From an uncultured Chloroflexia bacterium (GTDB taxonomy: Bacteria > Chloroflexota > Chloroflexia > QHBQ01 > JADMIH01), in assembly GCA_963797095.1 (NCBI GenBank), contig CAWCNY010000008.1, forward strand, positions 111,431 through 175,430: a stretch of DNA of 64,000 nt, in the 5' to 3' direction. A program made the translations under genes and the position numbers. Below the pieces are notes generated by a model that worked only from the letters and a program-made list of their open reading frames with translations, was not told where the DNA came from and did not search any database. Every line of letters begins with the position of its first letter. Position 1 is the first letter of the stretch. Below are positions 34,701 through 47,940 of this stretch, one piece after another.

Positions 34701-36049
34701 GCGTTTTCGGCACTCATCATCGCTTGATAGCCCTCAAGGGCGCGGTCAATGAACGCGTCTGTGCTGCCAAGGTAGCTGGCAGGATCAAGTGCGGCCTCGA
34801 TGGCATCGGGGGGCAGAATGGCGCGAATTTGTTCGTCGCTCAAGGAGGCGTCTTGCAAGCTGATCCCTTGTTCAAGCGCACGCGCGCCCACAGCCTGGAC
34901 CAGATGTTGGGCTTGCTGCTTCCCTATGTAGGGTGCGAGTGCTACCAGTAGCGCCTCGGACATCAGCAATCCGCCGCTCTGCTGGAGGTTGGCGTGCATT
35001 CTTTGGGGATCTACCTGCAAGTCCCGTAGGGCGTTGCCCACGCGGGCTACCGCGCTGCTTGTAAAGCAGAACAGGTCTGGGATGGCCTGCCATTCGGCCT
35101 GCCAGGCTCCTGCTGCGCGTTCGTGCTCCTGGGCCATCGATGCCAGCATGATGGGAACCTGTCCAAGCGCCAGCCGCGACGCTGCAAGGGCCATAGTAGC
35201 ATCAACCGGGTTGCGCTTCTGGGGCATGGCCGAGGAGCCGCCTTTGCCTGGGGCTGCCTCTTCTGATACTTCTCCAACCTCTGTTTGGGCGAGGAGCACC
35301 AGGTCGCTTGCGATCTTCGCCATAGAGCCAGCGGTGATGCCAAGTGTGGCGGCGACGGTGGTAAAGCGGTCGCGCTCGGTGTGCCAGGGGAGATCCGGCA
35401 AGGGTAGATTGAGACCCTGGGCGACTATGCGCACAACCTCCAATCCTTTGTCTCCGAGCACGGCAAGGGTGCCCGCAGCACCGCCCAATTGGAGGGCCAA
35501 CGATTGGGCGCGGCTGCGGCGTAATGCCTCTATTTGACGGGTCGCGAGGGCGAGCCAGCGGGCGGCCTTCAGTCCGAAGGTGATCGGCATGGCCTGCTGT
35601 AGTAAGGTCCTTCCGGCCATGAGGGTATGGCGGTGCTGCTCGGCGAGGGTGGCTGCAGACTTGCACAGGTCGCGCAGGCTGTCTACGAGGAGGTTCAGGC
35701 CGTCGCGCATTTCTAGCGCAAGGGCTGTGTCTATGGCATCCTGACTGGTAGCGCCCCAATGTATGTAGGATTTCGCGGGATCGGCTATGTGCTCGCCTAG
35801 CATTCGGACCAGAGGAATGGCCGGTGTGCCCGCGAGGGATACCTCTTCGAATATGCGTGGCACATCAAATAGCTCGACCCGGCAACCGGCTTCTATAGCG
35901 TCAGCCGCTTCTTGAGGGATCACCCCGGCTTCGGCCTCGGCGCGGGCCAGGGCTGCCTCGAAGGCAAGCATCTTCTGTACGTGGGATTCCGCCGAGAAGA
36001 TGGCGTCCATCTCGGTGGTAGTGAAGAGATTGCCCGTGGGCGTGCCCAT
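34697..36049 (-). CDS. pcaB: 3-carboxy-cis,cis-muconate cycloisomerase
   Basis: HWGATSQD, GRTLLQQA, GGSSAMPQKRNP and EHERAAG motifs. Confidence 0.93.
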   Translation of the reverse strand: MGTPTGNLFTTTEMDAIFSAESHVQKMLAFEAALARAEAEAGVIPQEAADAIEAGCRVELFDVPRIFEEVSLAGTPAIPLVRMLGEHIADPAKSYIHWGATSQDAIDTALALEMRDGLNLLVDSLRDLCKSAATLAEQHRHTLMAGRTLLQQAMPITFGLKAARWLALATRQIEALRRSRAQSLALQLGGAAGTLAVLGDKGLEVVRIVAQGLNLPLPDLPWHTERDRFTTVAATLGITAGSMAKIASDLVLLAQTEVGEVSEEAAPGKGGSSAMPQKRNPVDATMALAASRLALGQVPIMLASMAQEHERAAGAWQAEWQAIPDLFCFTSSAVARVGNALRDLQVDPQRMHANLQQSGGLLMSEALLVALAPYIGKQQAQHLVQAVGARALEQGISLQDASLSDEQIRAILPPDAIEAALDPASYLGSTDAFIDRALEGYQAMMSAENA

Positions 36050-36829
36050 TTAGGTTGCCTCCTGGCTGTGGGCTTGGGCCGTACGAGCTTGTAAATCTCG
36101 GAGGACCGCCAGTTCGGTTTGATCGGGTGGGGGCGTTTGCTCGATCTGTTTCGCGAAACGGATGGGCCAGCCTGTGTTTACGCTAATTTGCTCACGAGTG
36201 ACGCCTGCGTGGATGGAGACAACTGTTAGTTCCTTTGTGCTGGGGTCGGGGCGCATGAGGCAAAGGTCGGTTATTACGAGGGTAGGGCCTTGCGTGCGCA
36301 GGCCGAGGCGTTGGCGGTGATCGCCACCTTCGCCATGCCCGAATGAGGTAATGAAGTCAACATGTTGCACGAATGAGCGGGCGGTCTGTGCCATGACGAC
36401 ATAGACTTGTTTGCAGTGGCTTGCGATCTGCGGCGCGCCGCCGCCCCCCGGCAGGCGTACTTTGGGTTGGGTGTAGCTGCCTATCACGCTGGAATTGATG
36501 TTGGCGAAGCGGTCGATCTGAGCACCCCCCAGGAAGCCAACGGAGATGCGGCCACCCTGAAGCCAGTAGCTGAACATTTCAGGCACAGAGACCGTGCAGA
36601 GGGCGGTTTCGCATAGCTCAGGATCGCCTATGGAGAGGGGGAGTACATCGGGCTTGGTGCCGATCGTGCCCGATTCGTAAATGAGGGTGATATCGGGCGC
36701 GTGGGTGAGGCGGGCGAGATTACAGGCCAGCGAGGGCGCGCCAATACCGACGAAGCAAATGTCGTCGTTAGTCAAGGCGCGGGCTGCGGCGACTGCCATC
36801 ATTTCGGAGGTTGTGTAAGGTGTAGTCAT
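36050..36829 (-). CDS. pcaJ: 3-oxoadipate CoA-transferase subunit B (CatJ/GctB type)
   Basis: FVGIGAPS, LIYESG, GFLGGAQIDRFANINS and RLPGGGGAP motifs. Confidence 0.88.
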   Translation of the reverse strand: MTTPYTTSEMMAVAAARALTNDDICFVGIGAPSLACNLARLTHAPDITLIYESGTIGTKPDVLPLSIGDPELCETALCTVSVPEMFSYWLQGGRISVGFLGGAQIDRFANINSSVIGSYTQPKVRLPGGGGAPQIASHCKQVYVVMAQTARSFVQHVDFITSFGHGEGGDHRQRLGLRTQGPTLVITDLCLMRPDPSTKELTVVSIHAGVTREQISVNTGWPIRFAKQIEQTPPPDQTELAVLRDLQARTAQAHSQEAT

Positions 36830-36880
36830 TCGTTATTAGTTTTTCTTGTCTCTTCAAGAAACGATAAAAGAGAGAGTAGA

Positions 36881-36933
36881 GTTGGGGATATCCCCCAATG
36901 ACCCCGGCAGGCAGTTCCGCCTGCATCCCCTAC
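36881..36933 (-). repeat. GTAG-initiated double-hairpin REP/MITE-like element between pcaI and pcaJ
   Basis: Minus strand reads GTAGGGGATGCAGGCGGAACTGCCTGCCGGGGTCATTGGGGGATATCCCCCAAC. Stems are GCAGGC/GCCTGC and TTGGGG(G)/CCCCAA; the TAG of GTAG is the pcaI stop. Confidence 0.55.
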
Positions 36934-37736
36934 GCAAGCACGTGCTCTTTTATCCAAAGCAGGAAGGTTTCGCGCTCTTTGGCTATGGCGTCCCAGGCGG
37001 TGTAGAAGGCGTTGTCGCGGCCATAGTAGCCGTGGGCGTAGGATGGGCGAGCGCCGCCGGGGGTTTCGGCTATGGCGGTTACGGTCCAGTTGGGGAGAAT
37101 GGTGGAGTTGAGGCTGGGGGGACGCAGGTCGTCTACTATCTCTTCTACTGTTACTATGGCTTGCCTGGATGCAAGCACTACTTCTTTCTGGACGCCGGTT
37201 ATGCCTTCGATGAGGACGTTGCCTGTGCGGTCGGCGCGTTGCGCGTGGACGATTGCCAGGTCGGGGCGGAGGGCGGGTACGGCGGCCAACTGCTCGCCTG
37301 TGAAGGGGCAAGTGATAGAGCGGATGTTGGAGTTGACGGTTGCGAGGTCGGTGCCGGTGTAGGCGCGCAGGACCGCGCAAGGCAGCCCGGCGGCTCCTGC
37401 TGCGTAGGCAGAGGCCATGGCGGCGTGGCTATGCTCCTCGATCTCCAGGGGGCGGGGCCAGCCGCGTTCGACGGCGTCGCGCAGGCGGTGGAGGGAGCCA
37501 ACGCCGGGGTTACCTCCCCAGGAGAAGATCACCTTGCGAACGCAGCCCATCCCTATCATCTGGTCGTAGATGAGGTCGGGTGTCATGCGCATAAGGACCA
37601 GGTCGCGTTTGCCCTGGCGTATGATCTCGTGCCCGGCGGCGAACGGGATCAGGTGTGTGAAGCCCTCCAGTGCGAGCGTCATGCCATCTTGAACGTAGGT
37701 GGCGATCGCTTCACTCAGGGATAGGAAAGATGTCAT
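36930..37736 (-). CDS. pcaI: 3-oxoadipate CoA-transferase subunit A (CatI/GctA type)
   Basis: ALEGFTHLIPFAAGHEIIRQ, MTPDLIYDQMIG and FSWGGNPGVGSLHR motifs. Confidence 0.9.
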   Translation of the reverse strand: MTSFLSLSEAIATYVQDGMTLALEGFTHLIPFAAGHEIIRQGKRDLVLMRMTPDLIYDQMIGMGCVRKVIFSWGGNPGVGSLHRLRDAVERGWPRPLEIEEHSHAAMASAYAAGAAGLPCAVLRAYTGTDLATVNSNIRSITCPFTGEQLAAVPALRPDLAIVHAQRADRTGNVLIEGITGVQKEVVLASRQAIVTVEEIVDDLRPPSLNSTILPNWTVTAIAETPGGARPSYAHGYYGRDNAFYTAWDAIAKERETFLLWIKEHVLA

Positions 37737-37749
37737 CGGCCCGGCTCCA

Positions 37750-38334
37750 TCACAGGTTGAAGAAGACCGTTTCACCTGCCCCTTGTAGCACCACGTCGAA
37801 GCGGTAGCTGGCAACCCCATCGCGCTCGACGGGCTGCGCGAGCAGGGTTGCCCTGCGCTCGGCAGGCACACACATCAGTACGGGGTCGTTTGCGTTGGCT
37901 GGGTCGTCGGCGAAGTAGAGGCGGGTGTAGAGGTGATTCAGGAGGCCACGAGCAAAGACGGCCACGCAGATGTGGGGGGCTTGCATCTGCTGCGCGTCGT
38001 AGGGCACAGCGCCAGGCTTGATCGTCTCGAATAGGTATGCACCTTCGTCGTTCGTGCCGCAACGCCCGAAGCCTGTGAAGGTCGGATCTAGGGGGAGGTC
38101 CCGGTTGTCGGTGGAGTGGTTATAGCGGCCTGACGCATTAGCCTGCCAGATCTCAAGCATGGCATCCGGCACGGGTTGGCCGTCGCCATCGTACACGTAC
38201 CCCTCGATGTTGATGCGAGTGCCTTCGGTGGCGGGCGCGACCAGCACGTTGGCACACTGCCTATCGTCGCGCAGCAGACAAGGCTCGAAGAAGGGGCCGA
38301 CGGTTTGGGAGGGGGTGAGTGCGAAAGTGTTCAT
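37750..38334 (-). CDS. pcaG: Protocatechuate 3,4-dioxygenase alpha subunit
   Basis: TPSQTVGPFF, EIWQANASGRY, QAPHI..FARGLL and GETVFF motifs. Confidence 0.95.
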   Translation of the reverse strand: MNTFALTPSQTVGPFFEPCLLRDDRQCANVLVAPATEGTRINIEGYVYDGDGQPVPDAMLEIWQANASGRYNHSTDNRDLPLDPTFTGFGRCGTNDEGAYLFETIKPGAVPYDAQQMQAPHICVAVFARGLLNHLYTRLYFADDPANANDPVLMCVPAERRATLLAQPVERDGVASYRFDVVLQGAGETVFFNL

Positions 38335-38335
38335 A

Positions 38336-39064
38336 TCAGTGGGTATCCCTCGGCGGCTCGAACGGGGTGGCTTCGGGGCCGCCCAGCACGATGTTCCAAC
38401 TCCAGCCAAGTGCCCACTCAGGCTCGGTAATATCATGGCGATATTTGGCGATCAGCCTTTGTCTGGCTGCTTCTGTCGGCACAGAGTTGAAAATGGGGTC
38501 GTACGGGAAAAGAGTATCGCCCTCAAAGTACATCTGAGTTATCAGGCGGGATGTCCAGGTTCTGCCGAAGAATGAGAAGTGGATGTGGGCCGGTCGCCAG
38601 GCGTTGGGGTGGTTCTTCCATGGATAAGCGCCGGGCTTGATGGTGAGGAACCGGTAGACTCCTTCCGAGTCGGTCAGGCAGCGCCCGATGCCGAGGAAGT
38701 TGGGATCGAGGGGGCCAGGCCACCGGTCATTGCGGTGGATGTAGCGCCCGCAGGCATTGGCCTGCCATACCTCTATGAGAGTGTGAGGCACGGGCGCGCC
38801 GTGCTCGTCCAGTACCCGACCCGTGACGATAATGCGCTGGCCGATGGCCTCGCCGCCTGTGCCTGCGTTGCGTGTTAGGTCGGCATCTTCCGGCGTGGTC
38901 GCACCCATTATTGGCCCAGGCCCGGTCAACTCCGAAATCGTGAGGGGCACATCAACTAGCGGCATCGTGGGGGCGCGCTTGATGGTCGAGCGGTAGGCGT
39001 CGTAGAGAAAAGGCGGGAAAATCTCTCGGTCGCCTCGTATGATTTCTCCTATGGTTGTTATCAT
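38336..39064 (-). CDS. pcaH: Protocatechuate 3,4-dioxygenase beta subunit
   Basis: WQANACGRYIH and PGAYPWKNHPNAWRPAHIHFS (Fe ligands); GGAGG RBS. Confidence 0.95.
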   Translation of the reverse strand: MITTIGEIIRGDREIFPPFLYDAYRSTIKRAPTMPLVDVPLTISELTGPGPIMGATTPEDADLTRNAGTGGEAIGQRIIVTGRVLDEHGAPVPHTLIEVWQANACGRYIHRNDRWPGPLDPNFLGIGRCLTDSEGVYRFLTIKPGAYPWKNHPNAWRPAHIHFSFFGRTWTSRLITQMYFEGDTLFPYDPIFNSVPTEAARQRLIAKYRHDITEPEWALGWSWNIVLGGPEATPFEPPRDTH

Positions 39065-39111
39065 CGGTGTTCCTCCTGTGACGAGAGCAACTTGTGGTCC
39101 GGCGCTTGCCA

Positions 39112-39495
39112 TCACTCATCATCGGTCGCGGACGTTAGCTCCTTTTTGGCGATAGCGAAAGCTGTGTTGGCGGCGGGGATGCCGGCGTAAACGGCCACGT
39201 GGAGCAGCGCCTCAGCTATCTCATCGGGCGTCGCGCCTGTATTGCGGGTGGCGTGCAGGTGCAGCGCCAACTCTTCAGTGCGCCCAAGCGCAGCCAGCAC
39301 AGCGATTGTGATCAGGCTGCGCGTTCGCGGGTCGAGGCCGGGCCGCGCCCACACCGATCCCCAGGCTGTCTCTGTGATGAAACGCTGGAAATCGGCGTCC
39401 AACTCCGTTATGCCCGCCTCCGCCCTGTCTACGTGCGCATCGCCTAACACCGCCCTGCGAACACGCATTCCTTTGTCGTAGCTCGATTCTTCCAA
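39112..39495 (-). CDS. pcaC: 4-carboxymuconolactone decarboxylase
   Basis: GMRVRRAVLGDAHVDR, FQRFITETAWGSVWARPGL and YAGIPAAN motifs. Confidence 0.93.
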   Translation of the reverse strand: MEESSYDKGMRVRRAVLGDAHVDRAEAGITELDADFQRFITETAWGSVWARPGLDPRTRSLITIAVLAALGRTEELALHLHATRNTGATPDEIAEALLHVAVYAGIPAANTAFAIAKKELTSATDDE

Positions 39496-39509: not shown

Positions 39510-40685
39510 CTAGACCCGTTCCAGGCCGACGTAGTTCTCGGCGAGGCTTGTGGCGGCTGGCTGCGATGTGCAGACGTATCTCAGTTGAGACAGTTGTAGT
39601 TGCTGCTGGAACCCGCCATCATCGTCGTAAAAGCGGTGCAGCATGGAGGTCATGTACCACGAAAAGTGCTCGGCCCGCCAGACGCGGCGCAGACAAATCT
39701 TCGAGTATGACTCCAGTTTCTGAGTGTGGCCCTGCTCGTACCAATCAACGAGAGCATCGGCAAGCACGCGCACGTCGGCGACGGCGAGATTCAGCCCTTT
39801 GGCCCCGGTGGGTGGCACCAGGTGGGCTGCGTCGCCCGCCAGGTAGAGCCGCCCGTATTGTATCGGGTCGTACACAAAGCTACGCATAGTGGTGATGCTC
39901 TTTTCGAGGACCTCGCCTTCCTGAAAAGTCCAGCCGTTTATCTCCAGGCGCTCGTGTAGCTCGTGCCAGATAAGCTCGTCGGGCCATTGCTCAATTTCGT
40001 CGTCGGGGGAGCACTGAATATATAGGCGGCTCAACTGGGGTGAGCGCATACTGTAGAGGGCGAAGCCGCGCTCGTGGTAGGCGTAGATTAGTTCGTGGGT
40101 AGCGGGCGGCGCGGCGGCGAGGATGCCTAACCAGGCGAAAGGGTAGACTTTCTGGTAGCACCGCAACGCTTCTTCGGGCACGCTTGGGCGACATGGGCCG
40201 TGGAAGCCATCGCACCCCGCGATGAAATCGGCGTGTAGCTCCTCCTCTTTACCCTGGTACTGGAAGCGGACGTAAGGGTGGTCGGTGTCTATATTGTGGA
40301 GGCTGACGGCCTCGGCCTCGAACAGGATTTGCCCGCCGGCTGCCAACCGCGCCGCAATCAGGTCTTTTACTACTTCTTGCTGCCCGTAGACGGTAATGGC
40401 GCGCCCGCCGGTGAGTTCGCTCAAAGGGATGCGGTGGCGCTCACCCCCGAACTGGAGGTTGATCCCGTGGTGCACTAACCCCTCGCGGGTCATGCGCTCG
40501 CCAACCCCTGTTGAATTGAGCAGATCAACCGTGGTCTGCTCCAGCACTCCCGCTCTCAAGCGATGCTCTACATATATGCGATCATGCCGCTCCAGCACGA
40601 CCAACTCGATGCCATGCAGGTGCAGTAAATGGGAGAGCACCAGCCCCGCCGGACCCGCGCCCACGATAGCTACCTGTGTACGCAT
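39510..40685 (-). CDS. pobA: 4-hydroxybenzoate 3-monooxygenase
   Basis: MRTQVAIVGAGPAG, RAGVLEQ, GCDGFHG, GDAAHLVPPTGAKGLN and AENYVG motifs. Confidence 0.95.
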   Translation of the reverse strand: MRTQVAIVGAGPAGLVLSHLLHLHGIELVVLERHDRIYVEHRLRAGVLEQTTVDLLNSTGVGERMTREGLVHHGINLQFGGERHRIPLSELTGGRAITVYGQQEVVKDLIAARLAAGGQILFEAEAVSLHNIDTDHPYVRFQYQGKEEELHADFIAGCDGFHGPCRPSVPEEALRCYQKVYPFAWLGILAAAPPATHELIYAYHERGFALYSMRSPQLSRLYIQCSPDDEIEQWPDELIWHELHERLEINGWTFQEGEVLEKSITTMRSFVYDPIQYGRLYLAGDAAHLVPPTGAKGLNLAVADVRVLADALVDWYEQGHTQKLESYSKICLRRVWRAEHFSWYMTSMLHRFYDDDGGFQQQLQLSQLRYVCTSQPAATSLAENYVGLERV

Positions 40686-40702: not shown

Positions 40703-41803
40703 TTAGTTTTCTCCCCAAACCTCGCGTGCCACATCGGCTACCAGCTTTAGCTTGGCCTCCTCGTCGGAGGGGGTGAGGAGGTTGCCCGCCTCGGTGGAGG
40801 CAAAGCCGCATTGGGGGCTTATGGCTAGCCTCTCCAGCGGTATATATGTGGATGCTTCCTCGATGCGGCGCTTAAGTTCTTCTTTGTTCTCCAGAGCTGG
40901 TTTCTTGGTTGTGACCAGGCCAAGCACTATGGTCCTATCTCCTGGAACGTGGCGTAACGGCTCAAAGCCGCCGGATCGTTCGTCGTCGTATTCCAGCAGG
41001 AAGCGCCCGAACTTTGTACGCTCGAACACCGAGGCGATTGGTTCGTAATCTCCACTCGCGTAGAACTTGCTCTGGTTGTTGCCCCGGCAGAGGTGCACCC
41101 CGAAGGTGATCTCAGGATTGCCCAGGTAGTCACTGATAACGGCATTATCCATCTCGATACAGCGGTCGAGGAGGCGATCGGGGTCGGTGCCACGCTTGCG
41201 GTAGCCCTCGCGGATCGAGGCGTCGAGTAAGCCCGCGTACTGTGGTGCATCCAGTTGGATATAGGTACAACCGAGATGGATCAACTCGGCAATTTCGCCA
41301 CGCAAGATGTCTACAACGTCGGCCAGATAAGCGTCAATTGTAGAGTAAGCCCCCTTTGATTTCTCCGCGTCGTAGTACGCCGCGGCCTGTTGTGCGTTGA
41401 TAAGAGTGACCTTTATGGGTTTGTCGGTTCTTGCGCGCACATACGCGAACTCCTCGGTGCTCATGGGCCGTATTCGCTTGAGCCGAGAAACCACCACAGG
41501 CCGCTTGAGCACAAGTTCGTTGCCCTGCTCGTCTCGGAAGGGGATGGCCCAGCCGCCATATTTGTCGAAGCCCTCAACCGCGTCGATAAAGTGCCCGTAG
41601 AAGGCGTAGCGGCGCATCTCGCCATCTGTAATTACGTCCATGCCTGCCTCTAGTTGCAGGTCAACCGCCTCGTTTACGGCCCGGTCTTCAACGCGTTTGA
41701 AGGCGGCGTCGCTGAGCGTGCCCGCCTCATGTTCTTTGCGGGCCTCCTTCAAGTAGTCAGGCCGGAGCAGGCTCCCGATCACGTCGTTATGATAATTAGG
41801 CAT
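40703..41803 (-). CDS. Cobalamin-independent methionine synthase II-family protein (single-barrel MetE-like Zn enzyme)
   Basis: VIGSLLRP, TDGEMRR, YIQLDAP, HLCRGN, FLLEYDD and SPQCGFAST motifs; only 366 aa, with no N-terminal folate-binding barrel. Confidence 0.88.
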   Translation of the reverse strand: MPNYHNDVIGSLLRPDYLKEARKEHEAGTLSDAAFKRVEDRAVNEAVDLQLEAGMDVITDGEMRRYAFYGHFIDAVEGFDKYGGWAIPFRDEQGNELVLKRPVVVSRLKRIRPMSTEEFAYVRARTDKPIKVTLINAQQAAAYYDAEKSKGAYSTIDAYLADVVDILRGEIAELIHLGCTYIQLDAPQYAGLLDASIREGYRKRGTDPDRLLDRCIEMDNAVISDYLGNPEITFGVHLCRGNNQSKFYASGDYEPIASVFERTKFGRFLLEYDDERSGGFEPLRHVPGDRTIVLGLVTTKKPALENKEELKRRIEEASTYIPLERLAISPQCGFASTEAGNLLTPSDEEAKLKLVADVAREVWGEN

Positions 41804-41889: not shown

Positions 41890-42900
41890 CTATTTGCTTT
41901 TGGCCAGGCGTGCGCGCCACCACCGCTGCAATCGCGTCCACGCCTCCACCAACCCGCCAGGGAACACAAGCACTACTATAATGAACAATATGCCGAAGAT
42001 GATCTGGTAGCTTTCTTGCAGGCTCAGCGAGAGTTGCTGCTGTACCACGATAAAGAAGATCGCGCCGATTATTGGCCCAACAATCGTACCCAAGCCGCCG
42101 ATGTAGGCGATGAGCAGGGCATCGAAGGTCCATGATGCGCCGAATGGAGCGGCAGGGTAGTAGCTGGCTTGCTGGTATGCAAAAACGCCACCCGCCAGCC
42201 CCGCAAGTAAGCTGGACAGGCCAAGAGCGAGCAGTTTGTGTGCCAGTATACTTACCCCGGTGGCGCGGGCCGCCTCCTCGTCTTCTCGCACCGCCTCCAG
42301 GCCAAGCCCCAGCGCCGAGTAGCGCAAGGCAGCCGCTATTCCGGTGGTTGCCAGGGCCACCCCCAGCGCGAGGTAGTAGCGCGAGTCAAGGTTGTAGTTG
42401 GCGATCTCAGGGCCGGGCAGCGACGTGATCAGGGGAAACTGCCGAGCCACCGTAATGCGCAATACCTCTGCGACACCCAGCGTTCCGATAGCGAAGTAGG
42501 CCCCACGCAGGCGAAAAGTCGGAACGCCGATCACAAGCGCGAAGGCGGCGGAAGCCAAACCACCCAGGAGCAGGGCAAGGAAGAAGGGCACCCCGCCCAA
42601 CCAGAGCGGGCGAGTGACAAGCGCTCCAATGCCAAAGAACGCCGCGTGTCCCAGGCTGGTTTGTCCTGCGAAGCCGGCCAGGATATTCCAACTCTGGGCC
42701 AGAGTTATGAACAGGCAAACCTGAAAGAGAAGGTTGAGGATATCATCACGAGTAACGAACCGTGGCACGAGGGCCGCGACGACCACTAACGCCAGAATTA
42801 GCAGACCTAACACCAGGCGACGCATGGCGGAGGGCGCTGGCAGCACTGCTGTCCTTTGCACATCGCTGTTTGTCGTTTGTCGCTCGGTAGTCTGGCTCAC
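41890..42900 (-). CDS. Branched-chain/aromatic-acid ABC transporter permease (LivM-like)
   Basis: SWNILAGFAGQTSLGHAAFFGIGA, RLRGAYFAIGTL and AVREDEEAA motifs. Confidence 0.92.
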   Translation of the reverse strand: MSQTTERQTTNSDVQRTAVLPAPSAMRRLVLGLLILALVVVAALVPRFVTRDDILNLLFQVCLFITLAQSWNILAGFAGQTSLGHAAFFGIGALVTRPLWLGGVPFFLALLLGGLASAAFALVIGVPTFRLRGAYFAIGTLGVAEVLRITVARQFPLITSLPGPEIANYNLDSRYYLALGVALATTGIAAALRYSALGLGLEAVREDEEAARATGVSILAHKLLALGLSSLLAGLAGGVFAYQQASYYPAAPFGASWTFDALLIAYIGGLGTIVGPIIGAIFFIVVQQQLSLSLQESYQIIFGILFIIVVLVFPGGLVEAWTRLQRWWRARLAKSK

Positions 42901-42907
42901 GATTATC

Positions 42908-43780
42908 CTATTCCCTCCCGAAAAGTCCGCCGGGCCTGAGCACCAGCACCAGCAGGAACATCACCAACCCCACGATTTCTCGGTAGCTGGAGCCGAGCAG
43001 GGTGCCGCTTAGCGCCTCCACAAGTCCAAGCAACAGCCCGGCAGGAAACACCCCGATGATACTTCCTGTGCCAGCGAGGACGATAACTACGAGGGCCTTG
43101 AGGGTCCAGGTCAGGCCGATATCAGGCTCGATCCCGTAGCCGACGACAACCAGGCTGCCAGCCACACCGGCCAGCGCCGCGCCGATCCCGAGGGTGTACA
43201 TGTAGGTACGCTGAACATCGACCCCGGCCAGGGCCGCGCTCTCGTTGTTCTCAGAGACGGCCCGGATCGCTTTGCCGGGGTAGGTGCGGTGAAGGAACTG
43301 GTGCAGAGCTACTATCGCGATCAGCGCCACTGCGAAACTGAGTAAGCGTGTGTATGGAAAAGCTATGCCGAACAGGTTAAGGCCGTTGCCGGAGTAGCTT
43401 AGTTGCACCGAACGCTGATCCGCTGTGAAGAAGACCTGCGCCGAGTTCTGAAGGATGAGCGTTAAGCCGAAGCTGACTAACAGTGAGTTCTTGAGCTTGG
43501 CCTCTCCATGAAGATGCACGAGGAACCTGAAGAGAACACGGTCAAGCACAATACCGAACAAGAAAAGAAGGGGTATGCACACCAGCAGCGAGATGAACGG
43601 ATCGAGGCCCACCAATACGAACAGCCAGAAAGTAACATAGCCGCCAAGCATCAGTAGCTCGCCGTGTGCGACGTTGAGCATCTTCAGCACACCGAACACA
43701 AGGGCCAGCCCCGCGGCGGCAACGCCGTAGATGCTGCCGACAAATAATCCGAAGACTAGATTTTGTACGAGGGTTTGCAA
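42908..43780 (-). CDS. Branched-chain/aromatic-acid ABC transporter permease (LivH-like)
   Basis: GLALVFGVLKMLNVAHGEL and GKAIRAVSEN..AALAGV motifs. Start is TTG 43780 or 43834 (uncertain). Confidence 0.9.
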   Translation of the reverse strand: MQTLVQNLVFGLFVGSIYGVAAAGLALVFGVLKMLNVAHGELLMLGGYVTFWLFVLVGLDPFISLLVCIPLLFLFGIVLDRVLFRFLVHLHGEAKLKNSLLVSFGLTLILQNSAQVFFTADQRSVQLSYSGNGLNLFGIAFPYTRLLSFAVALIAIVALHQFLHRTYPGKAIRAVSENNESAALAGVDVQRTYMYTLGIGAALAGVAGSLVVVGYGIEPDIGLTWTLKALVVIVLAGTGSIIGVFPAGLLLGLVEALSGTLLGSSYREIVGLVMFLLVLVLRPGGLFGRE

Positions 43781-43786
43781 TGTCCG

Positions 43787-43853
43787 TTCCGAGTTCCGAG
43801 TTCCGAGCTTCTGATTGCGTAGAGCAGATAACAACCAGGAACCAGGAGCCAGG
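43787..43853. repeat. Two short heptamer runs (TTCCGAG x3; AACCAGG/AGCCAGG x3)
   Basis: Read directly between the LivF-like and LivH-like genes. Confidence 0.8.
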
Positions 43854-43859: not shown

Positions 43860-44573
43860 TTACGGGGTGTAACCGAGATATGCCTCTTGCACTGTATTGT
43901 CGTGTAAAAGGGCTTTGCCTGTGCCGGAGTCTGCGACGTGGCCTTGTTCTATTATGTAGGCGCGGTCGGCCAACTCTAGAGCGGCGCGGGCGTTCTGCTC
44001 TACCAGCAGCACCGTTACGCCCTGCTGGTTGATGGCGCTCACGATCTCAAAGATGTGCTGGACGAGGAGAGGTGCCAGTCCGAGCGATGGCTCATCGAGC
44101 ATCAACAGGCGTGGAAGTGCCATCATCGCCCTTCCGATCGCGAGCATTTGCTGTTCGCCACCGCTCATCGTTTGTGCGCGCTGGGTCCTCCTGTCGGCCA
44201 GAACCGGAAAAGTTTCAAAGACTCGACTGAGGGTTTGTGTGCGCTGCTGCCTGGCTCCGGGGGTGAACGCACCCATCTCCAGATTCTCTAAGACAGACAT
44301 TCCACCGAACAGCCTACGACCTTCGGGGACCAGCACGATGCCGCGCTGAACGATTTCGTGAGGCCGCAGGATATGAAGCGGTTTACCTTCGAAACTGATG
44401 CTGCCCGACAACGGAGATTGCAGTCCTGAGATCGCTCGCATTAGGGTGGTTTTGCCTGCCCCATTTGACCCGATCAGCACTACGATCTCACCGGTATCAA
44501 CGGCGAGAGAGATGTCCCAGAGAACCTGGACATCGCCGTACGCGACTGCAAGATTCGTAACCTCAAGCAGCAT
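43860..44573 (-). CDS. ABC transporter ATP-binding protein (LivF-like)
   Basis: GSNGAGKTT, MSGGEQQML, LMLDEPSLGLAP and VEQN motifs. Confidence 0.94.
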   Translation of the reverse strand: MLLEVTNLAVAYGDVQVLWDISLAVDTGEIVVLIGSNGAGKTTLMRAISGLQSPLSGSISFEGKPLHILRPHEIVQRGIVLVPEGRRLFGGMSVLENLEMGAFTPGARQQRTQTLSRVFETFPVLADRRTQRAQTMSGGEQQMLAIGRAMMALPRLLMLDEPSLGLAPLLVQHIFEIVSAINQQGVTVLLVEQNARAALELADRAYIIEQGHVADSGTGKALLHDNTVQEAYLGYTP

Positions 44574-45297
44574 GGGCTGTTCCCAGGTATGCATCGATCA
44601 CTCGCTGGTCGTTGGCAACCCCGGCGGGTGTGCCTTCGGCGATGCGCTCTCCGGCGTTCATCACTGCCACGCGATCGGATAGGTCGAAGATCGCTTTGAC
44701 AACATGCTCCACGATGATCACGGTAATCCCGGAATCACGAAGCTCGCGAATCAGGTCCATTGCCTGGAGCACTTCGGTCGGGTTGAGACCCGCCAGTAGC
44801 TGATCCAGCAGCAACAGGGTTGGGCGCGTCGCCAGGGCGCGGGCCAATTCAAGGCGTTTGCGATCTACCAATGTAAGATGCTTGGCGTATTCATAGGCGC
44901 GTCCCGCTAACCCTACGCGCTGAAGTAAATCGAGCGCCTGGACCTCGGCCCGGCGGCGATTCCACACAGCATCGCGTCCGTAGACCCTGCCCACGGCCAC
45001 GTTTGCCAGCACAGTCAGGTCCTGGAACGGTCGCACCAATTGAAAGCTACGTGCGATACCAAGTTTGCACCGCCGGTGCGCGCCGAGGCGGGTTACGTCG
45101 GTGCCATCAAACAGGATTCGCCCGGACGATGGCCGAATGGAGCCTGCGATCATGTTGAAAAGCGTTGTTTTGCCGGCTCCATTCGGCCCAATCAGGCCCA
45201 GGATTTCGCCTCGCTGAACGCTCAGCGAGACGCCATTTACTGCCATTAGCCCACCAAAGGATTTGTAGATGTGATCTAGTTGAAGAAGCTGCGACAT
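44563..45297 (-). CDS. ABC transporter ATP-binding protein (LivG-like) with Walker B DQ
   Basis: GPNGAGKTT, RSFQ, KRLELARAL, LLLLDQLLAGLN and VEH motifs. Confidence 0.9.
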   Translation of the reverse strand: MSQLLQLDHIYKSFGGLMAVNGVSLSVQRGEILGLIGPNGAGKTTLFNMIAGSIRPSSGRILFDGTDVTRLGAHRRCKLGIARSFQLVRPFQDLTVLANVAVGRVYGRDAVWNRRRAEVQALDLLQRVGLAGRAYEYAKHLTLVDRKRLELARALATRPTLLLLDQLLAGLNPTEVLQAMDLIRELRDSGITVIIVEHVVKAIFDLSDRVAVMNAGERIAEGTPAGVANDQRVIDAYLGTAHAA

Positions 45298-45305
45298 GGT
45301 TGGAT

Positions 45306-45418
45306 GACGAGTGACGAGTGACGAGTGACGAGTGACGAGTGACGAGTACAGAGTTCCCAACTCCGACTACCGACTACCGACTACCGACTACCGACTACCG
45401 ACTACCGACTACCGACTG
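45306..45418. repeat. Adjacent heptamer arrays GACGAGT x6 (45306-45347) and CCGACTA x~8 (45363-45418)
   Basis: Read directly. Confidence 0.95.
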
Positions 45419-45464: not shown

Positions 45465-46778
45465 CTAGCGGTCGCTGAACGCGGGAGCAGGATAGATTAC
45501 AGGCTTGGCTGCCTGCTCCTTAGGCCAGACCGCCACCTGCTCGCCGTTCTGGTACTGTGTGACAATTGAGATCACCTGCCCGGTGCCATCCGGATTGAAC
45601 TTGACCGGGCCGATAACGGTATCGCTCATGTCAGTCTTGGCGAGGGCGTCACGTATGGCCTGGCGGTCGGTGCTGCCTGCGCGGCTGATGGCGTCGGCAA
45701 GGATCTGTACAACCGCATAGGCGGAACCTACACTCGATTGGGCGGGCGCGTTGTACTTGGCCTGGTAGCGCGCTGCCATATCTTGCGAGCCGGGGAAGGT
45801 AACATTAGCGGCCCACCCCTGGATTAGCATAACATCATCGCCATCTTTGCCCAGGTTAGTTGCCCAGGTTGTGCTATCGGGAGCGCGGATCAAGAACATG
45901 GCTTTGGGTGTATAGGCAAGCTCTTTCAACTGCTTGACCAGGGCTGTGCCGTCGGGAGGACTAGGCAGCGCGAGAAGCACCTCTGCCCCGCCATCCTTCG
46001 CCTTGCCTATAAGCCCCGAGTAGTCGGTTGCCCCAGGGGTGTACTGTTCGTCAGCCACGATGTCATAACCGCGATTTTGGGCTTCGGTGCGCCAGAGGCC
46101 GCCCAACTCGGCTCCCCAGTCGGTAGTCTCAGCGAAGATCGCCACTTTGGTCGGTTTGGGGTCGAGGCTATCGAGGAGGTCAAAGGTGGCCTTGGCTACA
46201 TCAGGCGACTTGGGGAAGGGAGAGAAGAGGTACCGGTAGCCTTGCTCGTGAATCTTCTTGAGCGCGAAGGCAATGCCCAGGTAAGGTATTTTATTCTTTT
46301 CAGCGATTGCTGCCGCAGCGGCATGCAGATCGCTGCCGAAACCACCCAGGTAGGCAGATACGTTATTGCTGGAGTTGAGGGTTTCCAGTTGCTGGGTGGT
46401 CTTGGTCGGGTCGGATGCATCGTCGAGCACAGTCAATTCTAGCTGCATCTTCTGCCCGCCCACATCTACACCACCGGCGTTATTGATGTCTTCCACGGCC
46501 AACTCGTAGCCATTCTTGACCAGCGCGCCGCCTGCCGCGTACTTGCCCGTGAGCGGGACCACCGCTCCGATGGAGATTGTCCCACCGGATGTGGTGCTTG
46601 CTGTCGTGGCGGTAGGCGCGACCGGTGCCGGTGTAGCGGTATCGGCTGCCGGTGCCGTTGTGTTGGTGGCGGCAGGTGGAGGCGAGGTCGGTGTGGCTTC
46701 TTCGCCGCATGCCGCCAGCAGCAGGAGTAAGACAATCAAAATACTGAATACGCGGAACTGTTGGGCCTTTGAAATCAT
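45465..46778 (-). CDS. ABC substrate-binding lipoprotein (LivJ/K fold, likely aromatic acid)
   Basis: Lipobox LAAC, P/T/A linker, IGAVVPLTG..INNAGG..DDASDP; GGAGG RBS before ATG 46778. Confidence 0.9.
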   Translation of the reverse strand: MISKAQQFRVFSILIVLLLLLAACGEEATPTSPPPAATNTTAPAADTATPAPVAPTATTASTTSGGTISIGAVVPLTGKYAAGGALVKNGYELAVEDINNAGGVDVGGQKMQLELTVLDDASDPTKTTQQLETLNSSNNVSAYLGGFGSDLHAAAAAIAEKNKIPYLGIAFALKKIHEQGYRYLFSPFPKSPDVAKATFDLLDSLDPKPTKVAIFAETTDWGAELGGLWRTEAQNRGYDIVADEQYTPGATDYSGLIGKAKDGGAEVLLALPSPPDGTALVKQLKELAYTPKAMFLIRAPDSTTWATNLGKDGDDVMLIQGWAANVTFPGSQDMAARYQAKYNAPAQSSVGSAYAVVQILADAISRAGSTDRQAIRDALAKTDMSDTVIGPVKFNPDGTGQVISIVTQYQNGEQVAVWPKEQAAKPVIYPAPAFSDR

Positions 46779-46929
46779 CTGCATCCTCCTTTGTGGACGC
46801 GCTGATCTGCTCCTTGCCAGGCATCAGCGCCCGATCAACTCTGGCCGGTGTTGTGCGCCGTGGGTTATTATCGCCTCGGTGGGCTTCTATTCAAGGCTCC
46901 ACCTCCCGGAAAATCGGTAGCGGAGCGAA

Positions 46930-47661: not shown

Positions 47662-47714
47662 GGCACGCAACTCCTCCAACTTTGAGGGGGTTCGGGGTTT
47701 CATGAGTATACGCC

Positions 47715-47724
47715 ATGTATACAT
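47715..47724. promoter_or_regulatory. Palindrome ATGTATACAT, candidate GntR/VanR operator 1
   Basis: Perfect palindrome with a GTATAC core ~55 nt upstream of the regulator start; repeated at 47869. Confidence 0.6.
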
Positions 47725-47868
47725 AAAAGGCAAGATGGACTTTCGACAATTTTGCGATCAAAATAGTCAAAAGTCCATCAATCCCTCAATTTTGTTCGTC
47801 TTGCGTGCCCTGCACGAGCTATTTTTGGCTAGCTGGATCAGGAAACCCGCTTTATGCTCTTTCAAGAG

Positions 47869-47878: not shown

Positions 47879-47940
47879 GATGGCCTCTCCACTGTTATGT
47901 GGAGAGGCCAAACGAGTGGTTGCTAATGCTGTTGGGCTGT

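What the first reader, a model, noticed from the sequence alone, without database searches (positions are those of the whole stretch)
40703..41803. MetE-like Zn enzyme sits where a vanillate/anisate O-demethylase is expected: candidate new thiol-dependent aryl-O-demethylase
Seen: a single-barrel MetE-family gene (Zn ligands HxC, E, C intact; no folate-binding N-terminal barrel) lies between the aromatic-acid importer and pobA (17 bp gap). The operon is headed by a VanR-like repressor, and the window has no vanAB, ligM/desA, P450 or corrinoid demethylase. Established: VanR normally controls vanAB. The MetE superfamily activates thiols on Zn for alkyl transfer (homocysteine in MetE/Mes enzymes, coenzyme M in epoxyalkane:CoM transferase), and many single-barrel members have unknown substrates. 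Inference: it may transfer the methyl of a methoxybenzoate (4-methoxybenzoate to 4-hydroxybenzoate for PobA, or vanillate to protocatechuate) onto homocysteine or another thiol. Alternatively it disposes of methyl groups from a demethylase encoded elsewhere, or catalyses another upstream step.
Basis: partly seen in the sequence, partly recalled or inferred. Interest (0 to 1): 0.8.

Follow-up and report, generated by a model that had tools for sequence, protein, structure and literature searches.

The report
MetE-like enzyme in aromatic breakdown operon
A half-size, zinc-dependent relative of methionine synthase sits inside a soil bacterium's operon for importing and breaking down plant aromatic acids, under a repressor type known to control vanillate demethylation, which makes it a good but unproven candidate for a new kind of enzyme that removes methyl groups from lignin-derived aromatics.

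Summary
Window 40703-41803 (-) encodes a 366-aa single-barrel MetE-family protein. It has intact Zn ligands (H237, C239, E271, C332) and the homocysteine-binding triad (S11, E62, D185). It lies 17 nt upstream of pobA in a 15-gene operon: regulator, ABC importer, this gene, pobA, pcaCHG, two CoA-transferase-like genes, pcaBD.

New here:
- The regulator is a close relative of Agrobacterium fabrum Atu1419, the repressor of the vanillate O-demethylase genes.
- Two exact copies of Atu1419's operator (ATGTATACAT) lie upstream of the regulator gene; one sits in a promoter spacer.
- The enzyme belongs to a tight clade (60-87% identity) found in several phyla.
- 49 of 80 clade loci carry aromatic-catabolism genes, against 0 of 20 paralogue loci.
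- In 401 Chloroflexota genomes, 25 of 41 clade carriers have pcaH, against 16 of 360 others.
- All 6 carriers checked also have MetH and/or MetE.

Best reading (0.45): methyl transfer from an imported methoxy-aromatic acid to homocysteine.

Against a simple vanAB replacement: 22 of 41 carriers also have VanA-like genes. No methyl sink is visible, and nothing is biochemically tested.

The scan noted the same idea before on other DNA. My four searches found no paper describing it.

The parts
47869..47878 (.). Operator palindrome 1, exact ATGTATACAT. It lies just after the hairpin that follows the SnoaL-like gene.
   Evidence: There are only two exact copies in 64 kb, and both lie here. The sequence is identical to the Atu1419 operator (PMC7797058).
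47715..47724 (.). Operator palindrome 2, exact ATGTATACAT, 154 bp from palindrome 1. It lies in the 17-nt spacer of a promoter-like site.
47705..47733 (-). Promoter-like site TTGCCT-17-TATACT upstream of the regulator gene (9 of 12 matches).
   Evidence: This is a consensus match only.
46930..47733 (-). Atu1419-type (VanR-group) GntR/FCD repressor. The true start is probably M25 or M27 of the listed ORF, downstream of the promoter.
   Evidence: Pfam GntR+FCD. PDB 6Z74 at E 1.5e-53, with R45, R86, Y133, N137, H141, H192 and H214 conserved.
45465..46784 (-). Lipoprotein-type substrate-binding protein (Peripla_BP_6, HAAT family). Its ligand is unknown.
43860..45360 (-). Two ABC ATPase genes (ORFs 44563-45360 and 43860-44594). 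The first ORF's listed N-terminus runs into a heptamer repeat array, so the true start is probably later.
   Evidence: Translations (Walker motifs read by eye, not scanned with Pfam). Repeats.
41890..43834 (-). Two BPD_transp_2 permease genes (42908-43834 and 41890-42900).
40703..41803 (-). The finding: a single-barrel MetE-family Zn enzyme of 366 aa.
39510..40685 (-). pobA, 4-hydroxybenzoate 3-monooxygenase.
   Evidence: NF006091 610.9 bits; TIGR02360 540.7 against a cut-off of 538.7.
39112..39495 (-). pcaC, 4-carboxymuconolactone decarboxylase.
   Evidence: PDB 4G9Q E 1.2e-29; 2AF7 E 7.8e-18.
37750..39115 (-). pcaH (38336-39115) and pcaG (listed ORF 37750-38436), protocatechuate 3,4-dioxygenase.
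   Evidence: Dioxygenase_C, PCDO_beta_N.
36050..37871 (-). Two CoA-transferase-like genes (listed ORFs 36930-37871 and 36050-36829), presumed pcaIJ.
   Evidence: Read from the translations only. Not scanned against any family library.
33912..36049 (-). pcaB-like lyase (34697-36049) and an alpha/beta hydrolase, presumed pcaD (33912-34700).
   Evidence: For pcaB, tblastn links it to a cluster whose representative is Lyase_1+ADSL_C. For the hydrolase.

Best explanation
The gene encodes a specialised member of the single-barrel 'methionine synthase II' branch of the MetE family. It binds Zn and homocysteine as MetE does, but it lacks the folate-side barrel.

Most likely it takes the methyl group directly from the methoxy group of an imported aromatic acid (vanillate-type, or 4-methoxybenzoate). 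A Zn-activated homocysteine thiolate attacks the O-methyl carbon in an SN2 step and the phenolate leaves. The products are methionine plus protocatechuate (or 4-hydroxybenzoate). PobA and PcaHG, encoded just downstream, then consume the aromatic product.

The operon is probably transcribed from a promoter that an Atu1419-type repressor occludes at two ATGTATACAT operators.

Shown: the fold, the Zn and homocysteine residues, the operon layout, the regulator type and operators, and the clade-specific linkage to aromatic ring-cleavage genes. Inferred: the methyl donor, the products, the importer's substrate, co-transcription, and the effector of the repressor.
For: 1. Catalytic apparatus. The Zn ligands and the homocysteine triad are kept in 67 of 67 clade sequences. 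The model is a confident MetE-type barrel.

2. It is the only unassigned enzyme in an otherwise complete importer plus pobA/pcaCHG/CoA-transferase-like/pcaBD operon.

3. Tight clade. In a 50%-identity library there is one full-length representative at 67%, and the next are at 52% and 48%. The top 120 relatives are 75-87% identical. The best 80 genome loci are 69-83% identical in Chloroflexota, Acidobacteriota, Verrucomicrobiota, Gemmatimonadota and Binatia.

4. Neighbourhoods. A ring-cleavage dioxygenase gene (pcaHG or catechol 2,3-dioxygenase) is in 25 of 80 loci, and any aromatic marker is in 49 of 80. For the 63 loci with at least 10 kb of flank the figures are 22 and 44. There are at least five different architectures: importer-gene-pobA; gene-pobA-pcaHG; pobA-gene-pcaHG; pcaHG-PQQ dehydrogenase-gene; and meta-cleavage operon-gene. 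Control: 0 of 20 paralogue loci (42-56% identity, same phylum) carry any marker.

5. Co-occurrence in 401 Chloroflexota genomes. pcaH is in 25 of 41 carriers against 16 of 360 non-carriers, odds ratio 34. Kin are not independent.

6. L040 has CoA ligase, Amidohydro_2, MaoC hydratase, SDR, this gene and PobA in one string, so the gene sits where the A. fabrum ferulate pathway has its O-demethylase.

7. The regulator matches Atu1419, repressor of the vanillate O-demethylase gene atu1420. It keeps the DNA-reading Arg, the three Zn histidines and 6 of 7 shared pocket residues. Two exact operator copies lie upstream of the gene. The 80%-identical relative L011 has regulator, importer and this gene with one operator copy upstream, and no pob/pca in the locus. 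The conserved module is therefore regulator + importer + enzyme.

8. It is not the housekeeping synthase. MetH and/or two-barrel MetE are present in 6 of 6 carriers checked. There is no riboswitch in the window.

9. This genome has no VanA_C and no LigM/DesA. 12 of the 25 carriers with pcaH have no VanA_C match.

10. Chemistry (established knowledge, recalled). LigM removes aryl methyl groups with the N5 of tetrahydrofolate and no metal, so a Zn thiolate is a competent nucleophile.

11. Clade-specific invariant residues cluster in the loops after the barrel strands and are rich in Tyr, Trp, Lys and Arg: Y66, H71, W85, R101, Y143, Y144, K148, K150, Y201, K246, Y248, R290.
Against: - No experiment exists on any clade member that I could find.
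- Carriers have VanA-like genes more often than non-carriers do (22 of 41 against 62 of 360). A VanA-like gene is in the locus in 10 of 80 loci. P450 genes adjoin it in two loci, L013 and L025. So it is not simply a substitute for known demethylases.
- The four g7 carriers have 3-4 LigM/DesA-like genes and no pcaH. In the one g7 carrier whose locus I read (G171), the gene stands alone among housekeeping genes.
- 31 of 80 loci show no aromatic marker.
- One methionine per aromatic molecule needs a methyl sink to regenerate homocysteine, and none is in the operon.
- Atu1419's proposed effector is methylene-tetrahydrofolate, which points to folate-bound C1 units rather than methionine.
- The binding protein's ligand is unknown.
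- Three full-length P450s elsewhere in the genome cannot be excluded as demethylases.
Confidence: 0.45

Rival explanations
1. It is an accessory methionine synthase that does not touch the aromatic ring. It uses a C1 carrier loaded by other demethylases (methyl-tetrahydrofolate monoglutamate, a methyl-corrinoid protein or similar). It thereby drains or harvests the methyl groups, and frees the carrier, during growth on methoxylated aromatics.
For: - The homocysteine triad is intact.
- It associates positively with VanA-like genes: 22 of 41 against 62 of 360.
- All four g7 carriers have 3-4 LigM/DesA-like genes.
- P450 or VanA-like genes are adjacent in some loci.
- The regulator's characterised relative senses methylene-tetrahydrofolate and controls a MetF-like recycling gene together with the demethylase.
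Against: - This genome has no VanA_C and no LigM/DesA, and its operon has no demethylase.
- 12 of the 25 carriers with pcaH also lack VanA_C. LigM-like genes were found in only 8 of 401 genomes.
- Characterised single-barrel synthases do not use methyl-folate (PMC7857596, passages).
- The regulator + importer + enzyme module in L011 suggests the imported compound is the enzyme's own substrate.
- MetH or MetE is already present in 6 of 6 carriers checked.
Confidence: 0.25
2. It is a Zn-thiol alkyltransferase acting on a non-methyl electrophile made during catechol metabolism. Examples would be an o-quinone, an epoxide or formaldehyde, by analogy with epoxyalkane:coenzyme M transferase. On this reading it is a detoxifying or side-reaction enzyme.
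For: - Its common partners are enzymes that make or cleave catechols: PobA, PcaHG, catechol 2,3-dioxygenase and VanA-like proteins.
- HxlR-family regulators are present in 17 of 80 loci.
- Paralogues are fused to aromatic-ring flavin hydroxylases.
Against: - The homocysteine-contact residues are invariant, as in true methionine synthases.
- This operon has no formaldehyde source.
- A detoxifying role does not explain a dedicated regulator + importer + enzyme module (L011).
- There is no precedent in this branch of the family.
Confidence: 0.08
3. It is an ordinary housekeeping B12-independent methionine synthase that lies in the operon by chance.
For: Public annotations call it 5-methyltetrahydropteroyltriglutamate-homocysteine methyltransferase. 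The catalytic residues are intact.
Against: - It has no folate-side barrel.
- TIGR01371 scores 56.6 bits against a cut-off of 929.95.
- MetH and/or MetE are present in 6 of 6 carriers checked.
- There is no SAM or B12 riboswitch.
- The aromatic linkage is clade-specific, with 0 of 20 in paralogue loci.
Confidence: 0.03

Closest known systems
MetE, cobalamin-independent methionine synthase (EC 2.1.1.14), C-terminal catalytic barrel
   Same: The fold matches (Foldseek TMq 0.77-0.78 to T. maritima MetE). The Zn ligands His, Cys, Glu and Cys and the homocysteine contacts Ser, Glu and Asp are the same.
   Different: It is half the size, with no N-terminal Meth_synt_1 barrel. Foldseek reports 18-20% identity. 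It scores far below TIGR01371's cut-off. It is not under methionine-type regulation and lies in a catabolic operon.
YxjG/YxjH-type 'methionine synthase II' family (NCBIfam NF005085/PRK06520 and NF004875/PRK06233; PDB 1YPX, Listeria)
   Same: These are the best family and structure-sequence matches: 265.8 and 236.3 bits and 1YPX at E 1.6e-57. The length and single-barrel layout are the same.
   Different: It scores below both curated cut-offs (313 and 576). It forms its own tight clade, with the next relatives at 52% or less. Relatives at 42-56% identity show no aromatic context. To my knowledge (recalled), the family's own methyl donor has never been established.
Core, folate-independent methionine synthases MesA, MesB, MesC and MesD/MesX (Price, Deutschbauer and Arkin 2021, PMC7857596)
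   Same: These are also single-barrel enzymes with conserved Zn and homocysteine residues that use a methyl donor other than methyl-folate (passages).
   Different: The match to MesD structure 3RPD is only 32.9 bits over part of the protein. The matches to the archaeal-type core-synthase models are weak. The contexts differ: Wood-Ljungdahl or MtrA for MesA-C and DUF1852 for MesD, against aromatic catabolism here. I did not search this genome for DUF1852.
LigM/DesA tetrahydrofolate-dependent aryl O-demethylases (Sphingobium sp. SYK-6; Atu1420 of A. fabrum)
   Same: The proposed job is the same: non-oxidative SN2 removal of an aryl methyl group to feed protocatechuate cleavage. The position in the pathway and the type of repressor and operator are the same as for atu1420.
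   Different: The fold is unrelated (GCV_T against the MetE barrel). The acceptor would be homocysteine rather than tetrahydrofolate. No LigM/DesA gene is in this genome.
Atu1419 regulon of Agrobacterium fabrum (VanR-group GntR repressor; PMC7797058)
   Same: The regulator matches at E 1.5e-53. The Zn histidines, the DNA-reading arginine and most pocket residues are conserved. The 10-bp operator is identical and present in two copies, one inside a promoter spacer.
   Different: In A. fabrum it controls a LigM-type demethylase and a MetF-like gene. Here it heads an importer + MetE-like + pob/pca operon. The operator spacing is 154 bp, against 190 and 109 bp in A. fabrum. Pocket residues N221, K175 and R183 differ. 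The effector here is untested.

Membership tests
MetE (EC 2.1.1.14) | Two (beta/alpha)8 barrels, with an N-terminal Meth_synt_1 barrel that helps bind the folate. | tested here: not met
   The protein is 366 aa with only PF01717. No PF08267 match was found anywhere in the genome.
MetE (EC 2.1.1.14) | Zn site His-x-Cys, Glu, Cys. | tested here: met
   H237, C239, E271 and C332, kept in 67 of 67 clade sequences.
MetE (EC 2.1.1.14) | Homocysteine contacts equivalent to E. coli S433, E484 and D599. | tested here: met
   S11, E62 and D185, kept in 67 of 67 clade sequences. The residue list comes from PMC7857596.
MetE (EC 2.1.1.14) | Reaches the curated equivalog score (TIGR01371). | tested here: not met
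   56.6 bits against a cut-off of 929.95.
MetE (EC 2.1.1.14) | Uses 5-methyltetrahydropteroyl-triglutamate as methyl donor. | not testable with these tools
   This needs an enzyme assay.
Methionine synthase II family (NF005085/PRK06520; NF004875/PRK06233; 1YPX) | Single barrel of about 365-375 aa that aligns end to end with the family model. | tested here: met
   Residues 2-363 align to positions 6-368 of 368. 1YPX aligns over residues 4-365.
Methionine synthase II family (NF005085/PRK06520; NF004875/PRK06233; 1YPX) | Reaches the curated family cut-off. | tested here: not met
   265.8 against 313, and 236.3 against 576. It is a sister clade rather than a member by NCBI's thresholds.
Core methionine synthase MesD/MesX | Close similarity to MesD (Price et al. 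required at least 390 bits to ACIAD3523). | tested here: not met
   MesD structure 3RPD matches at 32.9 bits over residues 42-195 only. ACIAD3523 itself was not available to me.
Core methionine synthase MesD/MesX | A partner gene mesX (DUF1852) next to it. | tested here: inconclusive
   The ORFs on either side are a permease and pobA. DUF1852 was not searched in the genome.
Rieske-type vanillate O-demethylase VanAB | Rieske domain plus VanA_C oxygenase domain. | tested here: not met
   This protein has neither domain. The genome has no VanA_C match.
LigM/DesA aryl O-demethylases | GCV_T fold that reaches NF047885 or NF047633. | tested here: not met
   This protein has no GCV_T domain. The genome's only GCV_T gene is gcvT (370.5 bits to the GcvT model, 74.6 to LigM) and is followed by gcvH.
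Epoxyalkane:coenzyme M transferase | MetE-family Zn enzyme that alkylates coenzyme M with an epoxide. | not tested
The resemblance is recalled only.
Atu1419 / VanR-group GntR repressors (the regulator, not the enzyme) | GntR winged helix plus FCD effector domain with a three-histidine Zn site. | tested here: met
   Pfam GntR+FCD. H141, H192 and H214 are conserved in the alignment to 6Z74.
Atu1419 / VanR-group GntR repressors (the regulator, not the enzyme) | Operator 5'-ATGTATACAT-3' at its own promoter, in more than one copy. | tested here: met
   There are two exact copies, at 47715-47724 and 47869-47878, and no other exact copy in 64 kb. Matches with up to two mismatches number 11, against 10.8 expected.
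Atu1419 / VanR-group GntR repressors (the regulator, not the enzyme) | Released from DNA by N5,N10-methylenetetrahydrofolate. | not testable with these tools
   Of the pocket residues, R86, Y133, N137, H141, H192 and H214 are conserved, while N221, K175 and R183 differ. Testing needs a gel-shift assay.

The most novel reading that the evidence does not exclude
This clade is a fifth mechanistic class of aryl O-demethylase. The other four are Rieske, P450, tetrahydrofolate-dependent and corrinoid-dependent enzymes. It would be an oxygen-, folate- and corrinoid-independent Zn enzyme that moves the methoxy methyl of lignin-derived aromatics (vanillate-type acids) straight onto homocysteine. Plant methoxy groups would then become methionine in one step, in soil Chloroflexota, Acidobacteriota and other phyla. 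It would also name a physiological methyl donor for the uncharacterised 'methionine synthase II' branch of the MetE family.
Probability: 0.4. Interest if true: 0.85.

Novelty: new variant of a known kind. Interest (0 to 1): 0.7.

Why it matters
O-demethylation is the gateway, and often the bottleneck, for turning lignin-derived aromatics into central metabolites.

All four known enzyme classes have a cost. They need oxygen and reductant and release toxic formaldehyde, or they need tetrahydrofolate recycling, or they need a corrinoid protein with an activation system. A Zn enzyme that passes the methyl group to homocysteine would be a simpler catalyst for lignin valorisation.

It would also do three other things:
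- link soil aromatic turnover to methionine and C1 budgets;
- explain how PCA-pathway organisms without any known demethylase could use methoxylated aromatics;
- give a first function to a very large family that is currently mis-annotated as MetE.

The regulator finding extends the Atu1419 repressor and operator pair from Agrobacterium to Chloroflexota.

Tried and rejected
- **Literature.** Four full-text searches found no paper describing a MetE-family aryl demethylase or this clade's function. One search used cobalamin-independent methionine synthase / O-demethylase / 4-hydroxybenzoate. One search used methionine synthase, O-demethylation, homocysteine, methoxylated aromatic, vanillate. One search used MetE-like / methionine synthase II / lignin / demethylase / protocatechuate. 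One search used aryl methyl ether, homocysteine, zinc, O-demethylase. Subscription journals are not covered.
- **Price et al. (PMC7857596).** The main text does not mention YxjG/YxjH, 1YPX or aromatics. Its supplementary tables were not open to me and may list this clade.
- **Plasmid collection.** The best relatives are below 50% identity (Rubrobacter 47%, Rhodococcus opacus 43%) and are not in aromatic clusters. They give no cultured model.
- **Sequencing runs.** No RNA holder is listed. Only two soil-metagenome DNA runs from one study hold a small share of the words.
- **Fusion search.**
  - P0271 (MetE-like + PcaH domain, one metagenome gene call) has a low-complexity 130-residue linker. 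It is probably a read-through of two adjacent genes and not a true fusion.
  - P0273 and P0295 look like merged gene calls.
- **Complementary distribution with VanA.** Rejected: the association is positive.
- **Sole methionine synthase.** Rejected.
- **Riboswitch control.** No Rfam match in the window.
- **Binding-protein specificity from solved structures.** Uninformative.
- **Naming the genome's three full-length P450s.** No specific family match.
- **Operator near the binding-protein gene.** No match with up to two mismatches between 46785 and 46930.
- **Operator in other loci.** One exact copy in L011 upstream of its regulator. One in L064 that I did not explain.
- **Complex prediction.** Not used, because no protein-protein claim is made.
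Full report
**What is there.**

The window is G000:C8:111431-175430 of a 6.0-Mb genome that is 93% complete. On the minus strand, ORF 40703-41803 encodes 366 aa.
- Pfam finds only the MetE catalytic domain (Meth_synt_2, E 2.3e-25, residues 8-338).
- The best NCBIfam matches are the 'methionine synthase II' models. NF005085/PRK06520 scores 265.8 bits against a cut-off of 313. NF004875/PRK06233 scores 236.3 against 576. The true MetE equivalog scores 56.6 against 929.95.
- The closest solved structure by sequence is the uncharacterised Listeria protein 1YPX (E 1.6e-57). MetE structures match at about 1e-12, and MesD (3RPD) at 3.3e-7 over part of the protein.
- An AlphaFold2 model built on 106 sequences has mean pLDDT 95.1 and shows one barrel.
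- Foldseek places it on the C-terminal barrel of MetE (TMq 0.77-0.78), 1YPX and 3RPD.

**Catalytic residues.**

I fetched E. coli metE and verified the published functional residues in it. Those are S433, E484, D599, H641, C643, E665 and C726, as listed in PMC7857596 (passages). I then aligned it with the clade.
- S11, E62 and D185 (homocysteine contacts) and H237, C239, E271 and C332 (Zn ligands) are present in the query and in 67 of 67 clade sequences taken from related loci.
- MAFFT offset the HxC motif by two columns. The motif alignment is unambiguous by eye.
- Across 106 broader family members, S11, D185, H237 and C332 are invariant. E62, C239 and E271 are conserved in at least 90%.

So the thiol substrate is very likely homocysteine or a close amino-acid analogue.

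**The operon.**

All genes are on the minus strand.

| Gene or site | Coordinates | Basis |
|---|---|---|
| Promoter-like site | 47733-47705 | |
| GntR/FCD regulator | 46930-47733 | |
| Peripla_BP_6 binding protein | 45465-46784 | |
| Two ATPases | 43860-45360 |, by eye |
| Two permeases | 41890-43834 | |
| The MetE-like gene | 40703-41803 | |
| pobA (17-nt gap) | 39510-40685 | |
| pcaC | 39112-39495 | |
| pcaH, pcaG | 37750-39115 | |
| Two CoA-transferase-like genes | 36050-37871 | translation only, |
| pcaB-like lyase | 34697-36049 | |
| alpha/beta hydrolase | 33912-34700 | |

The MetE-like gene is the only enzyme in the string without an obvious role. No Rfam family, and hence no SAM or B12 riboswitch, matches anywhere in the window.

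Its best PDB match, by a wide margin, is 6Z74 and its four sibling entries (E 1.5e-53, 185 bits, residues 29-250 against 9-229). These entries are Atu1419 of Agrobacterium fabrum (data-availability passage).

What is published on Atu1419 (PMC7797058; I read the abstract, passages, and sections 20 and 24):
- It is a VanR-group GntR repressor.
- It represses atu1420 (a LigM-type vanillate O-demethylase), atu1418 (a MetF-like gene) and itself.
- It binds the palindrome 5'-ATGTATACAT-3'.
- It is released by N5,N10-methylenetetrahydrofolate, and not by pathway intermediates.

In the alignment the following are conserved: DNA-reading R45, the Zn histidines H141, H192 and H214, and pocket residues R86, Y133 and N137. 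N221, K175 and R183 differ.

Searching the window for the palindrome gave exactly two perfect copies, at 47715-47724 and 47869-47878.
- They are 154 bp apart, and both lie upstream of the regulator gene.
- The first sits in the 17-nt spacer between the TTGCCT and TATACT hexamers.
- A random 64-kb sequence is expected to hold about 0.06 exact copies (my arithmetic). Matches with up to two mismatches are at chance level, 11 against 10.8.
- L011, whose enzyme is 80% identical, has the same regulator (70%), importer and enzyme. It has one exact palindrome upstream of its regulator and no pob/pca genes in the locus.

The conserved module is therefore repressor + importer + enzyme.

**A tight, widely spread clade.**
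- The 120 best of more than 8000 scored relatives are 75-87% identical.
- In a library clustered at 50% identity, only one full-length representative is close (67%). The next are at 52%, 48% and 47%.
- A scan of one genome per species gave 560 confirmed relatives. The best 80 are 69-83% identical. They come from Chloroflexota, Acidobacteriota (most of them), Verrucomicrobiota, Gemmatimonadota, Binatia and others.
- In 401 Chloroflexota genomes there is a clean gap. 41 genomes have a copy at 60% identity or more, and all other matches are at 53% or less, apart from one partial copy.

**Neighbourhoods.**

I called ORFs in the 80 loci, clustered them and named cluster representatives with Pfam and NCBIfam.

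Recurrent partners, as loci out of 80:

| Partner | Loci |
|---|---|
| CoA ligase | 36 |
| PQQ/cytochrome c alcohol dehydrogenase (often immediately upstream) | 35 |
| TonB-dependent receptor | 34 |
| Thiolase | 22 |
| pcaHG | 18 |
| Aldehyde dehydrogenase | 17 |
| HxlR-type regulator | 17 |
| pcaB | 11 |
| pcaCD | 11 |
| VanA-like Rieske oxygenase | 10 |
| PobA | 9 |
| 4-hydroxybenzoyl-CoA-type thioesterase | 9 |
| Amidohydro_2 decarboxylase-type | 9 |
| Catechol 2,3-dioxygenase with a meta-cleavage set | 8 |
| Tannase/feruloyl esterase | 5 |

- A ring-cleavage dioxygenase is present in 25 of 80 loci, and any aromatic marker in 49 of 80. Among the 63 loci with at least 10 kb of flank the figures are 22 and 44.
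- 31 loci show no marker. 19 of these have long flanks. Several of them still carry the PQQ dehydrogenase/CoA ligase set or the importer, which I did not count as markers.
- As a control I fetched 20 loci around paralogues (42-56% identity) from the same phylum and ran the same procedure. None of the 20 had a marker.
- More distant plasmid-borne relatives (43-47%) also lack aromatic context.

**Co-occurrence** (same 401 genomes; relatives are not independent, and G038 in the sample is unpublished).
- pcaH is found in 25 of 41 carriers and in 16 of 360 others, an odds ratio of 34.
- Of the 16 carriers without pcaH, I fetched the loci of five (G111, G156, G171, G240, G328). G111 and G156 have the gene beside a catechol 2,3-dioxygenase or a full meta-cleavage operon. 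In the other three I recognised no aromatic gene.
- VanA_C is found in 22 of 41 carriers and in 62 of 360 others. This association is positive, not complementary.
- LigM-like genes are rare, in 8 of 401 genomes. They include genus g7.
  - All five g7 genomes have a LigM-like match, and four of them carry the clade gene.
  - The four carriers have 3-4 LigM/DesA-like genes each, and no pcaH or VanA_C.
  - In the one g7 carrier whose locus I read (G171), the gene stands alone among housekeeping genes.
- 12 carriers have pcaH but neither VanA_C nor a LigM-like gene. This genome is one of them.

**Not the housekeeping synthase.**
- This genome has a 1213-aa MetH-type ORF and a 685-aa S-methyl_trans protein.
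- It also has a second single-barrel Meth_synt_2 gene on another contig.
- It has no Meth_synt_1.
- Five other carriers checked all have MetH and/or a two-barrel MetE.

**Interpretation.**

The apparatus says 'homocysteine S-alkylation on Zn'. The missing barrel says 'not methyl-folate-triglutamate'. The context points to plant aromatics at the step that makes catechols, in five or more independent gene arrangements and at least two well-sampled phyla. The regulator is of the kind that guards an O-demethylase.

O-demethylation is the one recurrent function that these clusters otherwise lack.
- L040 is the clearest case. It has CoA ligase, Amidohydro_2, hydratase, dehydrogenase, this gene and PobA in a row. 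That mirrors the A. fabrum ferulate route, in which the O-demethylase follows side-chain shortening.
- The chemistry is plausible. LigM does the same SN2 step with a weaker nucleophile (recalled; the LigM structure papers appear in the reference list seen).
- Clade-specific invariant residues lie in the loops after the barrel strands and are rich in aromatic and cationic side chains. Y143 aligns with E. coli W561. From memory, I believe that is the pterin-stacking tryptophan of MetE. This is suggestive only.

I put this reading at 0.45.

**What speaks against it.**
- VanA-like, P450 or LigM-like genes often accompany the clade. This fits 'several demethylases for several substrates', but it fits equally well an enzyme that handles C1 units made by the others.
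- Atu1419's effector is a folate, not methionine.
- One methionine per aromatic ring needs a route back to homocysteine, and none is encoded nearby.
  - Betaine-homocysteine methyltransferase shows that catabolic homocysteine-dependent demethylation exists. This is recalled; I saw only the title of Barra et al. 2006 in a reference list.
- The binding protein's ligand is unknown.
- Three unassigned P450s exist elsewhere in the genome.

I therefore keep the C1-draining methionine synthase at 0.25, a non-methyl thiol alkylation at 0.08 and chance placement of an ordinary synthase at 0.03. The remainder is unassigned.

**Novelty and earlier notes.**
- I found no paper on this in four searches.
- The scan itself has noted the same idea several times on other DNA. 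Those are unchecked AI notes, not independent support.
  - the Atu1419-type regulator with its exact operators;
  - the paralogue negative control;
  - the 401-genome co-occurrence tables, including the result against a simple vanAB replacement;
  - the check that canonical methionine synthases coexist with the clade gene;
  - the hydroxylase-MetE-like fusions in a paralogous clade.

Noticed in passing
P0276, P0277, P0278 (proteins): Three distinct proteins of 926-941 aa fuse an N-terminal aromatic-ring flavin hydroxylase (FAD_binding_3, plus Rng_hyd_C in one) to a C-terminal MetE-like barrel. The barrel is 44-45% identical to this gene and keeps all Zn and homocysteine residues. This is a physical link between the wider family and aromatic hydroxylation.
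   Followed up: partly
L020, L022, L028, L029, L033-L035, L042, L051-L053, L057, L062, L067, L085 (Acidobacteriota loci): A second, 339-aa Meth_synt_2 gene lies divergently next to the clade gene. It has intact Zn ligands in 16 of 16 sequences. It is paired with a 557-aa protein carrying AprA_N, WH_AprA and Methyltransf_36 domains, and often a VanA-like Rieske oxygenase follows. This may be a methyl-handling module. Its function is unknown.
   Followed up: partly
L088:10001-13500 approx.: Three tandem copies of the clade gene lie in one MAG chromosome.
   Followed up: no
window 45305-45347, 45363-45417 and 48536-48625: Perfect heptanucleotide tandem arrays lie in intergenic DNA: TGACGAG x6.1, CCGACTA x7.9 and TATTGCG x12.9. 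Two of them lie between the binding-protein gene and the first ATPase gene inside the operon. They create spurious repeat peptides at ORF starts.
   Followed up: partly
window 47881-47910 (- strand): An 11-bp-stem hairpin (GGCCTCTCCAC...GTGGAGAGGCC) lies directly after the SnoaL-like gene (47941-48375) and directly before operator palindrome 1. It is probably the terminator that separates that gene from the operon.
   Followed up: no
G171, G239, G303, G311 (genus g7, about 3-Mb genomes): Each has 3-4 LigM/DesA-like genes (489-588 bits to NF047885) but no pcaH and no VanA_C. These organisms seem to strip methyl groups from aromatics without the usual ring-cleavage route.
   Followed up: partly
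P0271: An apparent fusion of a clade member (63% identical) with a PcaH-type dioxygenase domain. The 130-residue linker looks like translated spacer, so it is probably two adjacent genes read through.
   Followed up: yes
L064:15384-15393: A lone exact ATGTATACAT in an acidobacterial locus that has no recognisable Atu1419-type regulator among the clustered genes.
   Followed up: no
window 48775-51837 (-): A 1020-aa STAND-type regulator (AAA_16, TPR, LuxR/GerE HTH) lies upstream of the SnoaL-like gene. Any relation to the operon is unknown.
   Followed up: no
L069, L070, L077, L079, L082 and others (Acidobacteriota): TPP-dependent E1 alpha/beta genes without an E2 lie a few genes downstream of the clade gene, in the same aromatic island. 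An earlier scan note (e1-4121587) describes this module.
   Followed up: no
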